From Candidatus Poseidoniales archaeon (lineage in GTDB: Archaea; Thermoplasmatota; Poseidoniia; Poseidoniales; Poseidoniaceae): 61,232 nucleotides of DNA. Location: positions 5,297 to 66,528 of the forward strand of contig QQRW01000023.1 of NCBI GenBank assembly GCA_003602605.1. Direction: 5' to 3'. Position 1 is the first letter of the stretch; each line of letters opens with the position of its first letter. Both the position numbers and the translations under genes were made by a program. Under the pieces are notes generated by a model that saw only the letters and a program-made list of their open reading frames with translations, searched no databases and was not told the origin of the DNA. Of the stretch, positions 140 to 5,527 are shown piece by piece.

Positions 140-1915
140 TCAGTCGAAATAGAGTGAGTAATCCTCACTCCAATCGACGGACGTCGCCTTGAACCACTCT
201 TCGGCTGAATCAAACGCTTCGTTCTCAGGATTCTTTCTTTTACGCTTGGCTCGTTGTGAAATGAGTTTCCAAGCTGTTTTCTCACCGATGCCTGGAATGG
301 CTTCCAATTGCTTTTGAGAGACTTTTTCTGCTTGGAGACCGGTTTCAACTCCAGTAATCGAACGTGCCCCGTGTCCAGTGACGACGATGGTGGATTGGGT
401 TTCAAGTGGAATGTGGTATTCCACGCCAACTAGGATCGGGTAAGCACCGATTTGCCGACCGAATGTAATGCCAGGTTTACCCCTGCATGACTCCGCAGTG
501 TGTGCTTCTTCGAGATGTGCAGTGAGTCTTGTTCGACCGTCATGCGCCTCCCAATGCACATCGGATAATTCTTCACCCAAGGGGAATAATTCCTCGAGAA
601 GTGGACCATCAATCGTGTCACGGACATTGGTTTTGAACATGTTAAATGCTTTTTGAGGGATATCTTGGAATCCTTCGCCTTCGACCTGACGGATGTTTAT
701 TCGTCGTAACAAGAGACCTTCACGGCGGATGTCGTGAAGTAAATCAAGATTCATCTGGTAACTGGATTCAGTTTCTCCATTCAAACCAGCAATGAAATTG
801 AGTCCAGGTAGCAACTTTGGCAGGCCTCTCTCTCCACGGGCGGAGCCATACTTGTTGATCAGCCGAATCGCTGACTTAAGTTGTGAGGGGTCGCAATTGA
901 GCCAATTTGCTTCGTGAACTGAAGGATCTGCCGACTCAAGACCAAACGAAAGCACGGCTCCATCAGACAATGTTTCCACGAGCGTTTTGGTAATCGCTTC
1001 GGATTCTTCGAGGTTTTCAGCGATTATGGAAGGATTTCCGTTATCGGTATGAAGGATTCCTAGACGCTCATCATCACGTAATCCGTGTAAGAGCTGTGCA
1101 ATTGGCTCAGGGTTTGGGACTGGGTATTCCAGTTCCTTTACGCCGTCTGCCATGTAGGTGTAGGTGTCGGTCATTCCCCCGAGTCGAACGTGCTTAACGC
1201 CAACATCATGCGCTCGGCGTACTTCTTCAATGATATCTTCGGGTGTCCGCCATATTGGTACACCCTTCTTTGGTTCGATACAGAATTTACATCCACGCTT
1301 GTAGCGTACGCATCCTTGGTACACTTCCACTTCGTAAGTAAGTGGGCCTTTCTTTTCTTCAGTGCCAAGGTCTGGATGCGCAGTGACTGCTTTACTTGCA
1401 GCCCCAGCCTGTGCCCAATTTGTCCATTGTTCGGCATTTCTTCGAGTATGCTTCCATTCTCCAGTGTTGAGATATGTGTGCAGTGTAGCATCCGTGTCTT
1501 GAACAGCCAGGAAGAGATTCTTTCTCAACGGCGTCCAGCCTTGTTGCCTCCAACCGCGAATCGCCCATCCTCCAAAGAGTGCTGGGACGCCATGTGGAAG
1601 GTCTCGAATTAGGTTTCGAGTCTCCTTCAAGGACAACGGTGTTCCACGAAGATAGCGGCCCGGGACAACTGCACCTGCAATACAGGCAAAACCTTCCACC
1701 GTTGCAAGTCGATTCCTTGCCCAGCCGTCTCCATGCTGACGAATCAAGTCCCGCCATTGGTCGATGGTAAGATAGTCGTAGTCGATTTTCGCTTCTTCAA
1801 GGACACCGCAGAGATAACGGATATGAAATCCGACATAAGGTGGAACTCCAAATGCTGCAGGTTCATCTTCATAGCCGTCAAGAATCAGCCATTTGGGTGA
1901 ATGCTGTTCGACCAT
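140..1915 (-). CDS. Radical SAM protein with TRAM-like and C-terminal helix-hairpin-helix domains (COG1031-type)
   Basis: Cys cluster GCVRYKRGCKFC (CX6CX2C); GLESAD and NFIAGL rSAM barrel motifs; TRAM-like FGRQIGAYPILVGV...VVTGHGARSITG; HhH LEAIPGIGEKTA. Start moved from TTG 1945 to ATG 1915. Confidence 0.8.
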   Translation of the reverse strand: MVEQHSPKWLILDGYEDEPAAFGVPPYVGFHIRYLCGVLEEAKIDYDYLTIDQWRDLIRQHGDGWARNRLATVEGFACIAGAVVPGRYLRGTPLSLKETRNLIRDLPHGVPALFGGWAIRGWRQQGWTPLRKNLFLAVQDTDATLHTYLNTGEWKHTRRNAEQWTNWAQAGAASKAVTAHPDLGTEEKKGPLTYEVEVYQGCVRYKRGCKFCIEPKKGVPIWRTPEDIIEEVRRAHDVGVKHVRLGGMTDTYTYMADGVKELEYPVPNPEPIAQLLHGLRDDERLGILHTDNGNPSIIAENLEESEAITKTLVETLSDGAVLSFGLESADPSVHEANWLNCDPSQLKSAIRLINKYGSARGERGLPKLLPGLNFIAGLNGETESSYQMNLDLLHDIRREGLLLRRINIRQVEGEGFQDIPQKAFNMFKTNVRDTIDGPLLEELFPLGEELSDVHWEAHDGRTRLTAHLEEAHTAESCRGKPGITFGRQIGAYPILVGVEYHIPLETQSTIVVTGHGARSITGVETGLQAEKVSQKQLEAIPGIGEKTAWKLISQRAKRKRKNPENEAFDSAEEWFKATSVDWSEDYSLYFD

Positions 1916-1941
1916 GTTGGCTAACCTCGAGTCGGTTGCCT

Positions 1942-3369
1942 TCAATCCTTCTTCTCACGACGGCGACGGGGACGCTTCTTTGAATCCTCTTCCTCTTCAC
2001 GAAGTGCTTGGAGTTCACGAGGTGATTTGCCACCGGAATTGTCAGAGCCTCGCTTTCCTCGGTTGTTAGCGCCTTTCTTACCGCCTTGTGACACATCAAC
2101 CTTGATGCGCCTGCCGAGCAATTCAGTTCCGTTGAGTTTGGAGACGATTTCATCACCCTTGTCCGTTTCCTTGATGAAAGCAAACGCGAATCCCTTCGGT
2201 TTTCCGTCACCACTGGTGGCGATAACAAGGCCGTTGATGGTTGCAATACCGTCAAATAAGGCTCGAATGTTTTCTTCAGTTGCTTTGAACGGTAGGTTTC
2301 CGATGTAGAGTTTGAGCCCTTCAGGGTCCTTTCGCTTCTCTCGCTTGCCCTTCTTATCATCGCTGTCTGCATCTCGCACACCGATCTTACGACCGTTGAT
2401 TTTGTGACCATTGAGTTTTTCAGCAGCTGCATCTGCATGTGATTTTTCCGAGTAGGTGACGAAACCGAATCCTCGGTTGACACCGTTGTCATCGGTCAGC
2501 ACAATACAATCGGTCATATCGCCGAACTCAGCAAACAGGGCCCGGAGTTCTTCGGTTCCAACTTCACGTGGTAGGCCACCGACGAACAATCGGCAACCTG
2601 GGGCGTTTCGTGGACGACGACCTTTGCCACCGCTCTCGCCTTCGAATCGGAAATATGTGCGCTCACGGCCGTCTTCTCGGACATCTGCAGCGATGAAGGT
2701 TGCTCGACCAGCAGGGCCTTTTCCAAACATGGCTTCAGCAGCAGCACCCCAGCGCTTACCGGAGTTGTTGAGTGCACTTGCACCTTGCTCAAGTTCAGCC
2801 CATCCTGCGCCATAGTTGTCTGCAAGTGCTCGGTAGGATTGGTAATTACATGTCGGGCATCGGACGTTCCAGTCGCCGTCAAGGTCAGCGACCAACACAT
2901 CGCCACAGGGTGGGCAAATCGCATGAAGTACGCCGCAGTCATCACGGTCTCGGAAACTGATGCGAAGAACAGGAGTTGTTTCTTTGACTTCCGCTCGACA
3001 GACATCTCGTCGTCGAACAGCATCTGCAGTTTGATGCATGTATCGGTCGACAATTCCAGTAACATGGAATTGCCCGTAGAGGTGTTCAGGCAGAACGCTA
3101 CCAGGTTTACCTTCGATGCAAAGAACCTGAGCTTCTCCATTCTTTTCGTTGAGTTTGACAATTTCACAAAGCACGGTATCACCGACTTCTGGCGTGACAA
3201 TTTCCTTTTGAGCAGCAACGGTTGCGATGCCGTCTTGAATTGAAAACATGCCAGTTGCGGTTGCTAAAATCGATCCATTGACTTCAATGGTTCCATCTCC
3301 AGCCTCACATTCTGATGAGGTTGATACTTGTGTTCCGGGGGTGACGAGGCTCGGCGTCATATTTTTCAT
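1942..3369 (-). CDS. csl4: Exosome RNA-binding subunit Csl4 fused to two RRM domains and a Lys/Arg-rich tail
   Basis: N-terminal LVTPG..V..., S1 domain (PEVGDTVLCEIV), zinc ribbon CPPC..CPTC..RALADNY; RRM1 LFVGGL/RGFGFVTY; RRM2 LYIGNL/KGFAFAFI. Start ATG 3369 (alternative 3360). Confidence 0.85.
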   Translation of the reverse strand: MKNMTPSLVTPGTQVSTSSECEAGDGTIEVNGSILATATGMFSIQDGIATVAAQKEIVTPEVGDTVLCEIVKLNEKNGEAQVLCIEGKPGSVLPEHLYGQFHVTGIVDRYMHQTADAVRRRDVCRAEVKETTPVLRISFRDRDDCGVLHAICPPCGDVLVADLDGDWNVRCPTCNYQSYRALADNYGAGWAELEQGASALNNSGKRWGAAAEAMFGKGPAGRATFIAADVREDGRERTYFRFEGESGGKGRRPRNAPGCRLFVGGLPREVGTEELRALFAEFGDMTDCIVLTDDNGVNRGFGFVTYSEKSHADAAAEKLNGHKINGRKIGVRDADSDDKKGKREKRKDPEGLKLYIGNLPFKATEENIRALFDGIATINGLVIATSGDGKPKGFAFAFIKETDKGDEIVSKLNGTELLGRRIKVDVSQGGKKGANNRGKRGSDNSGGKSPRELQALREEEEDSKKRPRRRREKKD

Positions 3370-3470
3370 TCCTGTAGCAAACATGGCCTGATGTAGGTCG
3401 CATGTTGTTTCGCTTGATTGAACCGGTGTGTTCACCCCTTTTCAACCCCTCATACGCAGCAGCCGTGACC

Positions 3471-4124
3471 TCAATCTTCTTCATCGAGCAACTTCGCATC
3501 TCCTGGAAGATGGAAGCGCCAACACAGTACAGTGGTAGCAGCCTTGCGCTTTGTGTGGTGCTGATAGGTTGGTGGAAGGCGGAAATTTGTTTCAAGCATT
3601 GCTTCTGAATCGTAGCCATATTCTCTTCCAAGTGCTTGCAGATGTTTGGATTTTGAACTGTGAAGCACATGGACAACCGGGGCGCCGAGAGAAAAGGCGT
3701 ATTCAAGTAACGGCCTGTCTGCCTTCGGCGTTTGCACACCCCATGGAGGATTCATCACAATAAGATCTGGAATGGGCTCAACATGCCGCGTTTGTTTCGT
3801 CACATGTTCATTCATCACTTCGCCAGTGCCGTTGCATCGTTGGTTGACTCTATCAGTATTTACTCGTGCCACTTCCACGACCTTCGGGTCTGCTTCAATC
3901 ATCGTGACGTGTTCTGCTCCGAGAAACAAGCACCCACATCCAAGGATTCCATTGCCTGCGCCGAGGTCAAGAACCCTTTTTCCTTCCAGCCCATCAACTT
4001 GGTCGATACCAAGAAGCCAATATGACGCAAGGTCACCTTCGGTTGCGTATTGTTCGAGTTCAACAGAGGTGCAAGGGTGTGGGGATAATTTGGACAATTC
4101 TATGGCCAAATGTTTGGGACGCAT
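3471..4124 (-). CDS. METTL5-like (COG2263) SAM-dependent RNA methyltransferase
   Basis: LEQYATEGDLA, VLDLGAGNGILG (motif I), MNPPWG (NPPF/W amino-methyltransferase motif); lies next to csl4 as in the archaeal exosome gene neighbourhood. Confidence 0.85.
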   Translation of the reverse strand: MRPKHLAIELSKLSPHPCTSVELEQYATEGDLASYWLLGIDQVDGLEGKRVLDLGAGNGILGCGCLFLGAEHVTMIEADPKVVEVARVNTDRVNQRCNGTGEVMNEHVTKQTRHVEPIPDLIVMNPPWGVQTPKADRPLLEYAFSLGAPVVHVLHSSKSKHLQALGREYGYDSEAMLETNFRLPPTYQHHTKRKAATTVLCWRFHLPGDAKLLDEED

Positions 4125-4390: not shown

Positions 4391-5527
4391 TCATTGCATG
4401 GATGCCAATTGCAGGAACACAGGCCATGTTTCGAAGCCTTCAGCAGTTGCCCTTTCGTTGAGGTTTTCCCAACGAGGGTCATCCATGATATCAGACGCTG
4501 CTACACCTGCGGCTAACAGTCCCGTCACAAGTTCACGGAATTCACGCTCGACTTCAGACATTTCAGGTTCGGGTTCTGGTTCGGGATCTGGAATTGGTAT
4601 GCTCGTTGGAGATTCTTCAACCGATGATTCTACAGGTGAGTTCACCTCGTCGGGCGTCGGTTCTTTTTCAGTTGACTGGGCGCCAGGTGGGAGGGGTACA
4701 AAGGCGTGTTCAACAACAGTAGATTCCGTTTCCACTACGGGTTTAGTCGTAGGCAAATCTACTTGTTCAGTGTTTTCAATGCCCGCATCTTCAGTCATTT
4801 CAGCGAGCATGTTTGTTGAGAAATCATCCATCATTTCATCCATGTTCGCTTCGGATTCTTTCGCCTTAACCGGAGCGGTAATTGGGATGTCTTCGGGAGC
4901 AGCCTCTGTGATTTTCACCTTCTTTTGAAGACGTCCCACACCCAGAACTTCCGCTTGCTGTCGAGCAAGTTCAGCAGCTTGGCGCCGTGGGAGGCTGACG
5001 AAGCATTTCCCAGGTACAGAAGCCGGCGGGAAGGGGAGGTAATAGGTTTCGAGCGGTGGCAAAGACGGATGGCGGAAGCATAGAATCCTCTGTGACTCAA
5101 AGGCTCGTTGACTCGGCAAATTCATCGAGAAAGGAACAGGTGAGATCTGAATCGAACTGCGTAACCACTGCTCGTTGGTGATGAGGTGTTGCATCCATGG
5201 CCCTAAATCAGGGCTGGCTAAGTCGACGAATTGGAACGAAGCATCCCGTGGATTGAAGTTTTGCTTCTCGAGTAAAGGGGCTTCTTGTCGAGGTCGGTGG
5301 AATACGGTGAGAACAGGCTGACCATGTTCAACCATATCGCCGTGTAATTCCATGAGTTTGCGCTCCTTACGAGGGCACATGAGAAGAATGAGCATTCGAG
5401 CGGCGTTCTCATCCCAAATTTCCCCCCATCGAGTCTCAGCCTCGATGGTGAGTTGTCCAAGTGTCATGTCAGGAATCATTGCAGTAATACCCATGTCCGC
5501 ACCAAACCGAGGGTGCGGTCGGGGCAT
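4391..5527 (-). CDS. Hypothetical protein: globular N-terminal domain, acidic/Pro-rich linker, small helical C-terminal domain
   Basis: 378-codon ORF packed between asd and the zinc-ribbon gene; no recognised motif. Confidence 0.7.
   Translation of the reverse strand: MPRPHPRFGADMGITAMIPDMTLGQLTIEAETRWGEIWDENAARMLILLMCPRKERKLMELHGDMVEHGQPVLTVFHRPRQEAPLLEKQNFNPRDASFQFVDLASPDLGPWMQHLITNEQWLRSSIQISPVPFSMNLPSQRAFESQRILCFRHPSLPPLETYYLPFPPASVPGKCFVSLPRRQAAELARQQAEVLGVGRLQKKVKITEAAPEDIPITAPVKAKESEANMDEMMDDFSTNMLAEMTEDAGIENTEQVDLPTTKPVVETESTVVEHAFVPLPPGAQSTEKEPTPDEVNSPVESSVEESPTSIPIPDPEPEPEPEMSEVEREFRELVTGLLAAGVAASDIMDDPRWENLNERATAEGFETWPVFLQLASMQ

What the first reader, a model, noticed from the sequence alone, without database searches (positions are those of the whole stretch)
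1942..3369. Archaeal exosome cap subunit Csl4 fused to tandem RRM domains and a basic disordered tail
Seen: one ORF with Csl4 (N-terminal domain, S1, CPPC/CPTC zinc ribbon), a G/R-rich linker, two complete RRMs (RNP2/RNP1 LFVGGL/RGFGFVTY and LYIGNL/KGFAFAFI) and a K/R-rich tail (GGKKGANNRGKRG...RPRRRREKKD). Known: archaeal Csl4 is normally about 190 aa and recruits DnaG; canonical RRMs are uncommon in archaea, and eukaryotes deliver RNA to the exosome via separate RRM adaptors such as RBM7 in NEXT. Inference: this is a hard-wired substrate adaptor on an archaeal exosome, a eukaryote-like RNA surveillance/targeting design, possibly undescribed.
Basis: partly seen in the sequence, partly recalled or inferred. 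Interest (0 to 1): 0.8.

Follow-up and report, generated by a model that had tools for sequence, protein, structure and literature searches.

The report
Exosome cap Csl4 with built-in RRMs
In the abundant ocean archaea Poseidoniales (Marine Group II), the only gene for Csl4, a lid subunit of the RNA-degrading exosome, always carries extra RNA-binding modules (here two RRM domains and a basic tail); the gene is real, found across the order and strongly conserved, is filed in databases simply as 'Csl4', and I found no paper describing it.

Summary
Window 1942-3369 (-) is one uninterrupted ORF. It holds a full-length Csl4 (NCBIfam equivalog, above cut-off), a conserved linker, two canonical RRM_1 domains and a basic tail.

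It is not an assembly artefact. All 98 Poseidoniales genomes with a Csl4 hit have it in a 407-598 aa frame. All 34 genomes of the sister lineages have a 185-294 aa Csl4.

It is the only Csl4 and holds the only RRMs in a genome that also encodes Rrp41, Rrp42, Rrp4 and DnaG. It sits in the same methyltransferase-csl4 gene pair as unfused csl4 elsewhere.

Every segment is under purifying selection (dN/dS 0.02-0.14). All RNP1/RNP2 aromatic residues are kept.

The extension is modular across relatives: RRM+RRM here, zinc finger+RRM+RGG in the sister family, and 2 zinc fingers+RGG in one metagenomic relative. This points to selection for extra RNA binding on the exosome cap.

The best reading is a hard-wired substrate-capturing arm. 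An engineered Csl4-DnaG-NTD fusion gives experimental precedent.

The 'eukaryote-like' label is analogy only, because the origin of the RRMs is unresolved. No paper was found. I class it as a new variant of a known kind; its function is untested.

The parts
1942..3369 (-). Whole csl4-RRM gene (475 aa from the ATG at 3369; stop codon 1942-1944). The open frame reaches up to the GTG at 3435, and conservation begins at the ATG at 3360.
2803..3369 (-). Csl4 core, aa 1-189: N-terminal domain, S1 domain and Zn-ribbon.
   Evidence: NF034126 scores 101-104 bits over model 2-179/180 at window 2809-3348. The PDB match 2ba1_A has E 9e-15. Foldseek gives TM 0.64. pLDDT is 82-94.
2845..2916 (-). Zn-ribbon cysteines CPPC...CPTC (aa 152-175).
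   Evidence: CxxC...CxxC is present in 121 of 121 cluster representatives of the family. C152 and C171 are invariant, and C155 and C174 are at least 90% conserved.
2704..2802 (-). Structured start of the extension (aa 190-222) with the order-wide signature LN..G.RW...AE. W207 is invariant.
   Evidence: It is conserved in both Poseidoniales families and in the divergent cluster representatives. Helices are predicted at 197-201, 209-216 and 219-222 with pLDDT 72-84.
2596..2703 (-). Segment predicted disordered but nearly invariant within the family (aa 223-258: GRATFIAADVREDGRERTYFRFEG, then a G/R-rich stretch).
   Evidence: pLDDT is below 50. dN/dS of the linker is 0.046. Alignment.
2368..2595 (-). 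RRM1 (aa 259-334), with RNP2 [RK]LF[VI]GGL and RNP1 RGFGFVT[YF].
   Evidence: RRM_1 hit at window 2383-2589, 74.9 bits. The motifs are kept in 121 of 121 representatives. dN/dS is 0.028. The canonical fold is predicted.
2320..2367 (-). Lysine-rich spacer between the RRMs (aa 335-350).
   Evidence: Predicted disordered. dN/dS is 0.021.
2089..2319 (-). RRM2 (aa 351-427), with RNP2 K[LIF]Y[IV]GNL and RNP1 KGF[AG]F. It aligns with the single RRM of the sister family.
   Evidence: RRM_1 hit at window 2101-2310, 45.9 bits.. dN/dS is 0.054.
1945..2088 (-). Basic tail (aa 428-475, pI 10.6). It holds a conserved helix motif SPRELQALREEEE (about aa 450-463, window 1981-2022) and ends in ...KKD.
   Evidence: The motif is in 116 of 121 representatives and also in clusters only 35-51% identical. 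It occurs once in the whole genome. A helix is predicted at 450-463 with pLDDT about 71.
3471..4124 (-). Context: upstream small-domain (METTL5-like) methyltransferase gene, the conserved partner of csl4.
   Evidence: Pfam MTS, Cons_hypoth95 and PrmA. The same MT-csl4 pair stands next to unfused csl4 in the sister order and in another Thermoplasmatota genome.
140..1945 (-). Context: downstream radical SAM gene (601 aa from a TTG that overlaps the csl4 stop).
   Evidence: Pfam Radical_SAM. It is next to csl4 in most Poseidoniales sampled. It is absent from the sister lineages and present elsewhere in the phylum.

Best explanation
This is the Csl4 cap subunit of the archaeal RNA exosome with a built-in RNA-binding arm.

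Shown:
- The N-terminal 189 residues are an orthologous, full-length Csl4, single-copy and at the ancestral chromosomal position.
- The genome encodes the rest of the exosome (Rrp41, Rrp42, Rrp4, DnaG).
- A 286-residue, net-basic extension carries two intact RRMs on flexible linkers plus a conserved C-terminal helix.
- The whole extension is kept by purifying selection throughout the order.

Inferred:
- The Csl4 core sits on the Rrp41-Rrp42 ring as in canonical exosomes, with its S1 domain at the pore.
- The extension begins at the Zn-ribbon, which lies at the periphery of the cap in solved structures. It should therefore swing outside the cap.
- The RRMs and the basic tail capture single-stranded RNA and raise its local concentration. 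They probably add some sequence preference, and they hand 3' ends to the pore for phosphorolytic 3'-5' decay or for A-rich tailing.
- With up to three Csl4 per cap, one exosome could carry up to six RRMs.
- The invariant disordered stretch (aa 223-246) and the C-terminal helix probably dock a partner that is not yet identified.
For: - Csl4 identity and completeness.
- It is the only Csl4 and holds the only RRMs in the genome.
- Exosome set present: Rrp41 325.6 bits (cut-off 318.7), Rrp42, Rrp4, and DnaG 364 bits (cut-off 300). Rrp41 is present in 13 of 13 sampled Poseidoniales.
- Census: the Csl4 frame is 407-598 aa in 61 of 61 genomes of this family and 37 of 37 of the sister family that had a hit. 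It is 185-294 aa in 33 of the 34 genomes of the sister lineages that had a hit; the 34th is a 90-aa fragment cut by a contig end.
- More than 300 full-length homologues on independent contigs, including 1.6-2.06 Mb single contigs.
- Positional orthology: the asd-...-MT-csl4 order is kept, and the MT-csl4 pair also holds unfused csl4.
- Purifying selection on 11 unsaturated pairs: Csl4 0.056, linker 0.046, RRM1 0.028, spacer 0.021, RRM2 0.054, tail 0.135.
- RNP1/RNP2 aromatic residues are kept in 121 of 121 representatives.
- Modules are interchangeable: RRM+RRM, zinc finger+RRM+RGG, 2 zinc fingers+RGG, and a single RRM. All of these are module types generally held to bind nucleic acids (family knowledge, not tested here).
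- Poseidoniales have no stand-alone RRM gene, whereas the sister order has one.
[quoted passage not shown] Natural exosomes gain RNA-binding capacity through Csl4-bound DnaG (PMC3672285).
Against: - There is no biochemical or transcript evidence for this protein; the lineage is uncultured.
- The Csl4 part scores lower against the family model (80-128 bits) than unfused relatives do (126-200 bits). It has diverged, and assembly on the ring is assumed.
- RRMs can also mediate protein-protein contacts.
- DnaG is retained, so an additional adaptor is not obviously needed.
- The position of the Csl4 C-terminus at the cap periphery comes from my knowledge of PDB 2BA1/3M7N. It was not measured here.
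- AlphaFold gives no information on how the arm sits relative to the ring.
Confidence: 0.65

Rival explanations
1. The arm has taken over, or re-wired, the role of DnaG. In other archaea DnaG docks on Csl4 through its C-terminal domain and supplies RNA binding. In Poseidoniales the fused RRMs would supply it instead, and DnaG would have loosened or changed its docking.
For: In 13 of 13 Poseidoniales, DnaG scores only 319-352 bits against NF003108. In 11 of them the match stops at about model position 280 of 419. Eight other Thermoplasmatota and five genomes of the sister order match full-length at 477-534 bits. The S. solfataricus C-terminal domain is important for exosome binding (PMC4227792).
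Against: The C-terminal domain is still present and alignable (26 bits, E 5e-6, model 303-415). The whole DnaG sits on a long branch: N-terminal+TOPRIM identity to outgroups is 47%, against 60% between the outgroups. The ratio of C-terminal to core identity is 0.45-0.50, against 0.54 between outgroups. A divergence specific to the C-terminal domain is therefore not shown. Exosome-less relatives keep a full-length match.
Confidence: 0.12
2. The extension mainly mediates protein contacts, localisation or condensate formation rather than substrate choice. It could, for example, tether the exosome to ribosomes, the membrane or another RNA-processing enzyme.
For: An invariant stretch predicted to be disordered (aa 223-246) and a conserved C-terminal helix look like docking peptides. 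RGG-rich and K/R-rich tails are typical of multivalent assemblies.
Against: The RNA-contacting aromatic residues of both RRMs are invariant. The modules that replace an RRM in relatives are themselves nucleic-acid binders. The tail motif is found nowhere else in the genome, so there is no shared docking code.
Confidence: 0.12
3. The protein acts apart from the exosome, as a free RNA chaperone or regulator in the manner of small bacterial RRM proteins, with the Csl4 part re-purposed.
For: The Csl4 domain has diverged from the family model. Small stand-alone RRM proteins exist in related archaea, and the fusion may have absorbed their role.
Against: No second Csl4 exists in any genome examined, while Rrp41, Rrp42 and Rrp4 are kept. 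The Csl4 core is under strong constraint (dN/dS 0.056) and matches the model end to end. The conserved MT-csl4 gene pair is kept.
Confidence: 0.08
4. Artefact: a chimeric assembly, or a missed stop or frameshift between two genes.
For: A few database entries show the RRM part as a separate 190-290 aa protein.
Against: Those entries are contig-end fragments, an adapter-truncated contig, or frameshifted long-read assemblies whose upstream frame continues the same gene. In all 98 Poseidoniales genomes with a hit, Csl4 lies in one 407-598 aa frame without stops, and where checked the RRM hit lies in that same frame. The junction region is itself conserved and under purifying selection.
Confidence: 0.01

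Closest known systems
Canonical archaeal Csl4 (for example Archaeoglobus fulgidus AF_0206, PDB 2BA1/3M7N/3M85; NCBIfam NF034126)
   Same: It has the same three domains (N-terminal, S1, four-cysteine Zn-ribbon). It matches the equivalog model end to end. It is single-copy, co-occurs with Rrp41/Rrp42/Rrp4/DnaG, and has the same methyltransferase neighbour.
   Different: It is 2.5 times longer. A 286-residue C-terminal extension adds a structured linker, two RRMs and a basic tail with a conserved helix. The core has diverged (101-104 bits, against 126-200 bits in unfused relatives).
Engineered Csl4-DnaG-NTD fusion and native Csl4-bound DnaG of Sulfolobus solfataricus (PMC4227792, PMC3672285)
   Same: An RNA-binding domain is held on the exosome cap through Csl4. 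[quoted passage not shown]
   Different: Here the fusion is natural and fixed across a whole order. The added domains are RRMs (zinc finger and RGG in relatives), not the DnaG N-terminal domain. DnaG is still encoded.
Eukaryotic exosome adaptors with RRMs (RBM7 in NEXT; also Nab3/Nrd1, Mpp6-type cofactors)
   Same: An RRM delivers RNA to an exosome whose cap includes Csl4.
   Different: Those are separate proteins bridged by the Mtr4 helicase and scaffold proteins. There is no covalent link to Csl4. No specific sequence kinship was found: the best PDB matches are PABP, hnRNP A1 and nucleolin.
Small stand-alone prokaryotic RRM proteins (cyanobacterial-type Rbp; NCBIfam NF058537 'Rbp_regulator'), including those of other Thermoplasmatota
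   Same: They share the single-domain RRM fold with canonical RNP1/RNP2. The fused RRMs score 83-93 bits against that bacterial model. Such genes occur in the sister order but not in Poseidoniales.
   Different: Those are 80-155 aa free proteins. Identity to the fused RRMs is only 32-40% on average, and the tree does not place the fused RRMs inside them (AU p 0.054).
Bacterial PNPase
   Same: It is a phosphorolytic RNase PH-type ring with RNA-binding domains (KH, S1) fused in the same polypeptide to catch substrate.
   Different: The fused domains and the subunit organisation differ, and there is no RRM.

Membership tests
Archaeal exosome cap subunit Csl4 (NCBIfam NF034126, equivalog) | Whole-protein score above the curated cut-off, with the model matched end to end | tested here: met
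   101.3 bits against a cut-off of 90, model 2-179 of 180; 104.4 bits on the genome
Archaeal exosome cap subunit Csl4 (NCBIfam NF034126, equivalog) | N-terminal domain + S1 + Zn-ribbon fold with four cysteines | tested here: met
   AlphaFold pLDDT 82-94 for aa 10-180. Foldseek best match 2ba1_A, TM 0.64. CxxC...CxxC in 121 of 121 relatives.
Archaeal exosome cap subunit Csl4 (NCBIfam NF034126, equivalog) | Single orthologue that co-occurs with Rrp41, Rrp42, Rrp4 (and DnaG) | tested here: met
   Rrp41 is in 13 of 13 Poseidoniales sampled.
Archaeal exosome cap subunit Csl4 (NCBIfam NF034126, equivalog) | Conserved chromosomal position next to the small-domain methyltransferase gene | tested here: met
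   The MT-csl4 pair is in this window, in the sister family, in the sister order and in another Thermoplasmatota genome.
Archaeal exosome cap subunit Csl4 (NCBIfam NF034126, equivalog) | Physical assembly on the Rrp41-Rrp42 hexamer, and DnaG docking | not testable with these tools
   This needs co-expression and pull-down, or a multimer structure prediction. Only single chains could be folded here.
RNA recognition motif (Pfam PF00076 RRM_1) | Profile match above the gathering score, two copies | tested here: met
   112.4 bits in total; 74.9 and 45.9 bits per copy against a cut-off of 20.7
RNA recognition motif (Pfam PF00076 RRM_1) | RNP2 and RNP1 motifs with their aromatic residues, and a beta-alpha-beta-beta-alpha-beta fold | tested here: met
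   The motifs are kept in 121 of 121 representatives. The predicted secondary structure is canonical for both copies.
RNA recognition motif (Pfam PF00076 RRM_1) | Binds single-stranded RNA | not testable with these tools
   This needs a gel-shift, SELEX or RNA Bind-n-Seq experiment with the purified RRM pair.
Eukaryotic NEXT-type exosome adaptor (RBM7-ZCCHC8-Mtr4) | The RRM protein is a separate subunit that reaches the exosome through a helicase and a scaffold | tested here: not met
   The RRMs are in the same polypeptide as Csl4, in one frame without stops.
Eukaryotic NEXT-type exosome adaptor (RBM7-ZCCHC8-Mtr4) | Specific sequence kinship of the RRM with RBM7 or another eukaryotic family | tested here: inconclusive
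   The best PDB matches are PABP, hnRNP A1 and nucleolin; RBM7 is not among the best 60. The tree is unresolved. Mean identity to every group is 32-40%.
CxxC-x17-CxxC zinc finger (TIGR04272 / PF23477) | Profile match in the extension | tested here: not met
   It is absent from this genome and from 7 of 7 genomes of this family. It is present in the Csl4 extension of 6 of 6 sister-family genomes.

The most novel reading that the evidence does not exclude
Poseidoniales have rebuilt the exosome cap. A modular, lineage-specific arm on Csl4 would be the main selector of exosome substrates. The arm consists of a structured adaptor helix bundle, interchangeable RRM, zinc-finger and RGG modules, and a C-terminal docking helix. 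It would partly displace DnaG and recruit a partner not yet identified. This would be the first prokaryotic exosome with hard-wired, sequence-selective RNA targeting, reached independently of the eukaryotic adaptor solution.
Probability: 0.2. Interest if true: 0.8.

Novelty: new variant of a known kind. Interest (0 to 1): 0.6.

Why it matters
How the archaeal exosome chooses its substrates is poorly understood. Known selectivity comes from Rrp4 and from DnaG docked on Csl4. This gene shows that a globally abundant, uncultured archaeal order fixed a different solution: RNA-binding modules built into the cap subunit itself, in several interchangeable versions.

This gives a natural experiment on cap-mediated targeting that can be tested with recombinant proteins. 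It is also a parallel to eukaryotic RRM adaptors.

It also shows a gap in annotation. Databases name this 475-aa protein plainly 'Csl4', which hides a 286-residue conserved extension.

Tried and rejected
I used independent assemblies instead.

2. Natural split genes. Proteins of 190-290 aa holding only the RRMs turned out to be contig-end fragments, an adapter-truncated contig, or frameshifted long-read contigs. I found no evidence of a naturally separate RRM-RRM gene.

3. Origin of the RRMs. A maximum-likelihood tree of 70 RRM domains (88 columns) resolves RRM1, RRM2 (apart from one divergent sequence) and the sister-family RRM as separate clades, but not their relations. Group identities are all 32-40%. 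The AU test for a single archaeal clade gives p 0.054, which is borderline and not decisive. RRM1 and RRM2 are only 32% identical, so they are not a recent tandem duplication.

4. DnaG C-terminal domain loss. The profile match is truncated at about position 280 in most Poseidoniales. However, the domain is present and the whole protein sits on a long branch. A specific loss is not shown.

5. Shared docking motif. The tail motif occurs only in this protein in the genome.

6. Rfam and tRNA scans of the window found nothing. The bacterial-type promoter and terminator scan was at chance level.

7. Literature. Six searches on Csl4, RRM, archaea, Marine Group II, Poseidoniales and prokaryotic RRM found no description. 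A Poseidoniales metatranscriptome paper does not mention the exosome or RNA-binding proteins.
Full report
**The observation.** The frame on the minus strand of the window is open from 3435 to the stop at 1942-1944.
- NCBIfam's equivalog model for the archaeal exosome subunit Csl4 (NF034126) matches residues 8-187 over model positions 2-179 of 180, at 101.3 bits against a cut-off of 90.
- Pfam RRM_1 matches twice, 112.4 bits in all.
- Against PDB sequences, the N-terminal part matches the A. fulgidus exosome Csl4 (2ba1_A, E 9e-15). The C-terminal part matches tandem-RRM proteins such as PABP, hnRNP A1 and nucleolin.
- Two AlphaFold2 runs (mean pLDDT 69.5 and 77.2) fold the three Csl4 domains and two canonical RRMs.
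- Foldseek returns 2ba1_A as the best PDB match (TM 0.64 on the target), followed by Sxl, HuD, HuR and hnRNP A1/A2 RRM pairs.

**It is not an artefact.** A search of 5.8 billion proteins returned more than 300 full-length relatives. The best 120 are 66-96% identical, on many independent contigs from NCBI, JGI, ENA, Logan and Tara. They are named 'exosome complex RNA-binding protein Csl4 [Euryarchaeota / Candidatus Poseidonia]', or 'nucleolin' by JGI.
- A census of 146 genomes of the class shows Csl4 in a 407-598 aa frame without stops in 61 of 61 genomes of the window's family and 37 of 37 of the sister family that had a hit.
- These include single-contig genomes of 2.06 and 1.6 Mb.
- The 34 genomes of the other lineages of the class that had a hit carry a 185-294 aa Csl4; one further hit is truncated by a contig end.
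- Database entries that show only the RRM half are contig-end fragments, an adapter-truncated contig, or frameshifted long-read assemblies.

**Genomic setting.** The window is contig C16:5297-66528 of a 2.02 Mb, 86% complete genome.
- Its only RRMs are the two in this gene, and this is its only Csl4.
- One run on contig C33 encodes Rrp4, Rrp41 (TIGR02065, 325.6 bits, above cut-off) and Rrp42. DnaG (NF003108, 364 bits, above cut-off) is on C13. A bacterial-type RNase PH is on C43.
- Rrp41 is present in all 13 Poseidoniales sampled.
- The gene order asd - hypothetical - small-domain methyltransferase - csl4 - radical SAM recurs in both families and on metagenomic contigs.
- The methyltransferase-csl4 pair, often with a 4-nt overlap, also holds the unfused csl4 of the sister order and of another Thermoplasmatota genome.
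- The fused gene is therefore the positional orthologue of ordinary csl4.

**Anatomy of the extension.** The alignments and the models divide residues 190-475 as follows.
- Residues 190-222 form a short helical unit with the signature LN..G.RW...AE. W207 is invariant in every relative. pLDDT is 72-84 with the more diverse alignment.
- Residues 223-258 are predicted disordered, yet GRATFIAADVREDGRERTYFRFEG is nearly invariant within the family.
- RRM1 spans 259-334.
- A lysine-rich spacer follows.
- RRM2 spans 351-427.
- The tail is basic (pI 10.6). It holds a conserved helix, SRELQALREEE, and ends in KKD. The helix motif is in 116 of 121 representatives and KKD ends nearly all of them.
- That helix motif is unique in the genome.

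**Selection.** Nei-Gojobori estimates were pooled over 11 unsaturated pairs with whole-gene dS between 0.1 and 1.0.
- dN/dS is 0.056 for the Csl4 core, 0.046 for the linker, 0.028 for RRM1, 0.021 for the spacer, 0.054 for RRM2 and 0.135 for the tail.
- The wider set of pairs is saturated in dS but gives the same ranking.
- The RNP2 and RNP1 motifs, with the aromatic residues that stack on RNA bases in known RRMs, are kept in all 121 cluster representatives.

**A modular family.**
- In the sister family of the order, the extension is a CxxC-x17-CxxC treble-clef zinc finger (TIGR04272, 40-50 bits against a cut-off of 36; PF23477), then one RRM and an RGG tail. The zinc finger sits where RRM1 sits here.
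- A profile-free search of 1.84 billion cluster representatives found about ten 50%-identity clusters of extended Csl4. Several are RRM+RRM and only 35-51% identical to this one. One has a single RRM.
- One, on a 3.0 Mb contig with the same synteny, has two zinc fingers and a long RGG tract but no RRM.
- All share the LN..G.RW linker.
- All except the sister family share the C-terminal RE..A..EEG helix.
- The zinc finger occurs as small stand-alone proteins elsewhere in the phylum. Within Poseidoniales it occurs only inside Csl4.
- Stand-alone ~90-aa RRM genes occur in the sister order and in other Thermoplasmatota, but not in Poseidoniales.
- What is conserved is therefore 'extra nucleic-acid-binding modules on Csl4', not the RRM as such.

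**Origin of the RRMs.** A tree of 70 RRM domains resolves RRM1, the bulk of RRM2 and the sister-family RRM as separate clades, but not their relations.
- Mean identities between all groups are 32-40%, and RRM1 against RRM2 is 32%.
- A single archaeal clade is disfavoured but not rejected (AU p 0.054).
- The closest unfused relatives I could place are ~100-155 aa RRM proteins on contigs with bacterial hallmarks: a PEP-CTERM domain, CcdA/CcdB, or a prepilin N-methylation signal.
- 'Eukaryote-like' is therefore an analogy of design, not shown ancestry.

**Mechanism.** In S. solfataricus, DnaG needs Csl4 to bind the exosome and strengthens its interaction with A-rich RNA (PMC3672285).
[quoted passage not shown] A Csl4 carrying an extra RNA-binding domain can therefore work in the complex and change its behaviour.
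- I infer that the Poseidoniales Csl4 core caps the Rrp41-Rrp42 ring. Its flexible arm then catches single-stranded RNA and feeds 3' ends to the S1 pore for phosphorolysis or tailing.
- Assembly, RNA binding and specificity are all untested.

**The DnaG lead.** In all 13 Poseidoniales, DnaG scores only 319-352 bits against its model, and in 11 of them the match covers only positions 1 to about 280. Elsewhere in the phylum it matches full-length at 477-534 bits. The S. solfataricus C-terminal domain is the part important for exosome binding.
- However, the domain is still present (26 bits; alignment).
- The whole protein is on a long branch.
- Exosome-less relatives keep a full-length match.
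- I keep 'the arm replaces DnaG' only as a minor rival.

**Novelty.** Six literature searches and two paper look-ups found no description of this architecture.
- Three earlier agents of this scan reached the same reading on other Poseidoniales genomes. I treat that as agreement, not as independent proof.
- Also new are the structured start of the extension, the per-segment selection estimates, the test of RRM origin and the DnaG comparison.

**Verdict.** This is a new variant of a known kind: a real and interesting domain architecture of a well-known subunit, with a plausible mechanism that has experimental precedent but has not been tested.

Noticed in passing
loci L020-L025, L035, L036 (sister family of the order); protein P0240: The sister family's Csl4 carries a CxxC-x17-CxxC treble-clef zinc finger (TIGR04272/PF23477), then one RRM and an RGG tail. 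The zinc finger sits where RRM1 lies in this window. It is the only copy of that zinc finger in those genomes.
   Followed up: yes
L089:5001-6383 (protein P0260, on a 3.0 Mb metagenomic contig): This extended Csl4 has two CxxC-x17-CxxC zinc fingers and a long RGG tract, has no RRM, and ends in the same RE..A..EEG motif. It has the same asd-MT-csl4 synteny. Its taxonomic place is not determined.
   Followed up: partly
window 140-1945 (-): A 601-aa radical SAM gene starts at or just after the csl4 stop. It is next to csl4 in most Poseidoniales sampled and absent from the sister lineages. Homologues 38-48% identical occur elsewhere in the phylum, including exosome-less genomes. Another note of this scan (e1-5236687) covers it.
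   Followed up: partly
own genome, contig C43:54404-54793 (outside the window): A bacterial-type RNase PH (TIGR01966, 245 bits, above cut-off) is encoded alongside the exosome's Rrp41 and Rrp42.
   Followed up: no
genomes G019 and G077 (other families of the phylum): These genomes have no Rrp41 and no Csl4, but do have PNPase-sized RNase PH frames (752 and 796 aa). They appear to be exosome-less Thermoplasmatota that still keep a full-length DnaG and stand-alone RRM and zinc-finger genes.
   Followed up: partly
own genome C13:15828-16664 and DnaG loci L067-L083: Poseidoniales DnaG has an acidic insert after the TOPRIM domain and a strongly diverged C-terminal domain. The canonical DG[IV]ITQRL motif reads NGPVSER in this genome (FNG/FAG/YNG in most Poseidoniales). 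The family model therefore usually aligns only to about position 280 of 419.
   Followed up: yes
window 4391-5527 (-): A 378-aa protein between asd and the methyltransferase has an acidic, proline-rich C-terminal half and no Pfam or NCBIfam match. A gene of similar size holds this position in relatives.
   Followed up: no
L066:7685-8468: A bacterial-looking contig carries two adjacent small RRM genes. One of them (P0194) is the sister of RRM1 in the tree (98/91 support, on a long branch).
   Followed up: partly
L058 and L060 (polished long-read assemblies): Frameshifts split csl4-RRM into two or more called genes in these contigs. Such entries make the RRM half look like a separate protein in databases.
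   Followed up: yes
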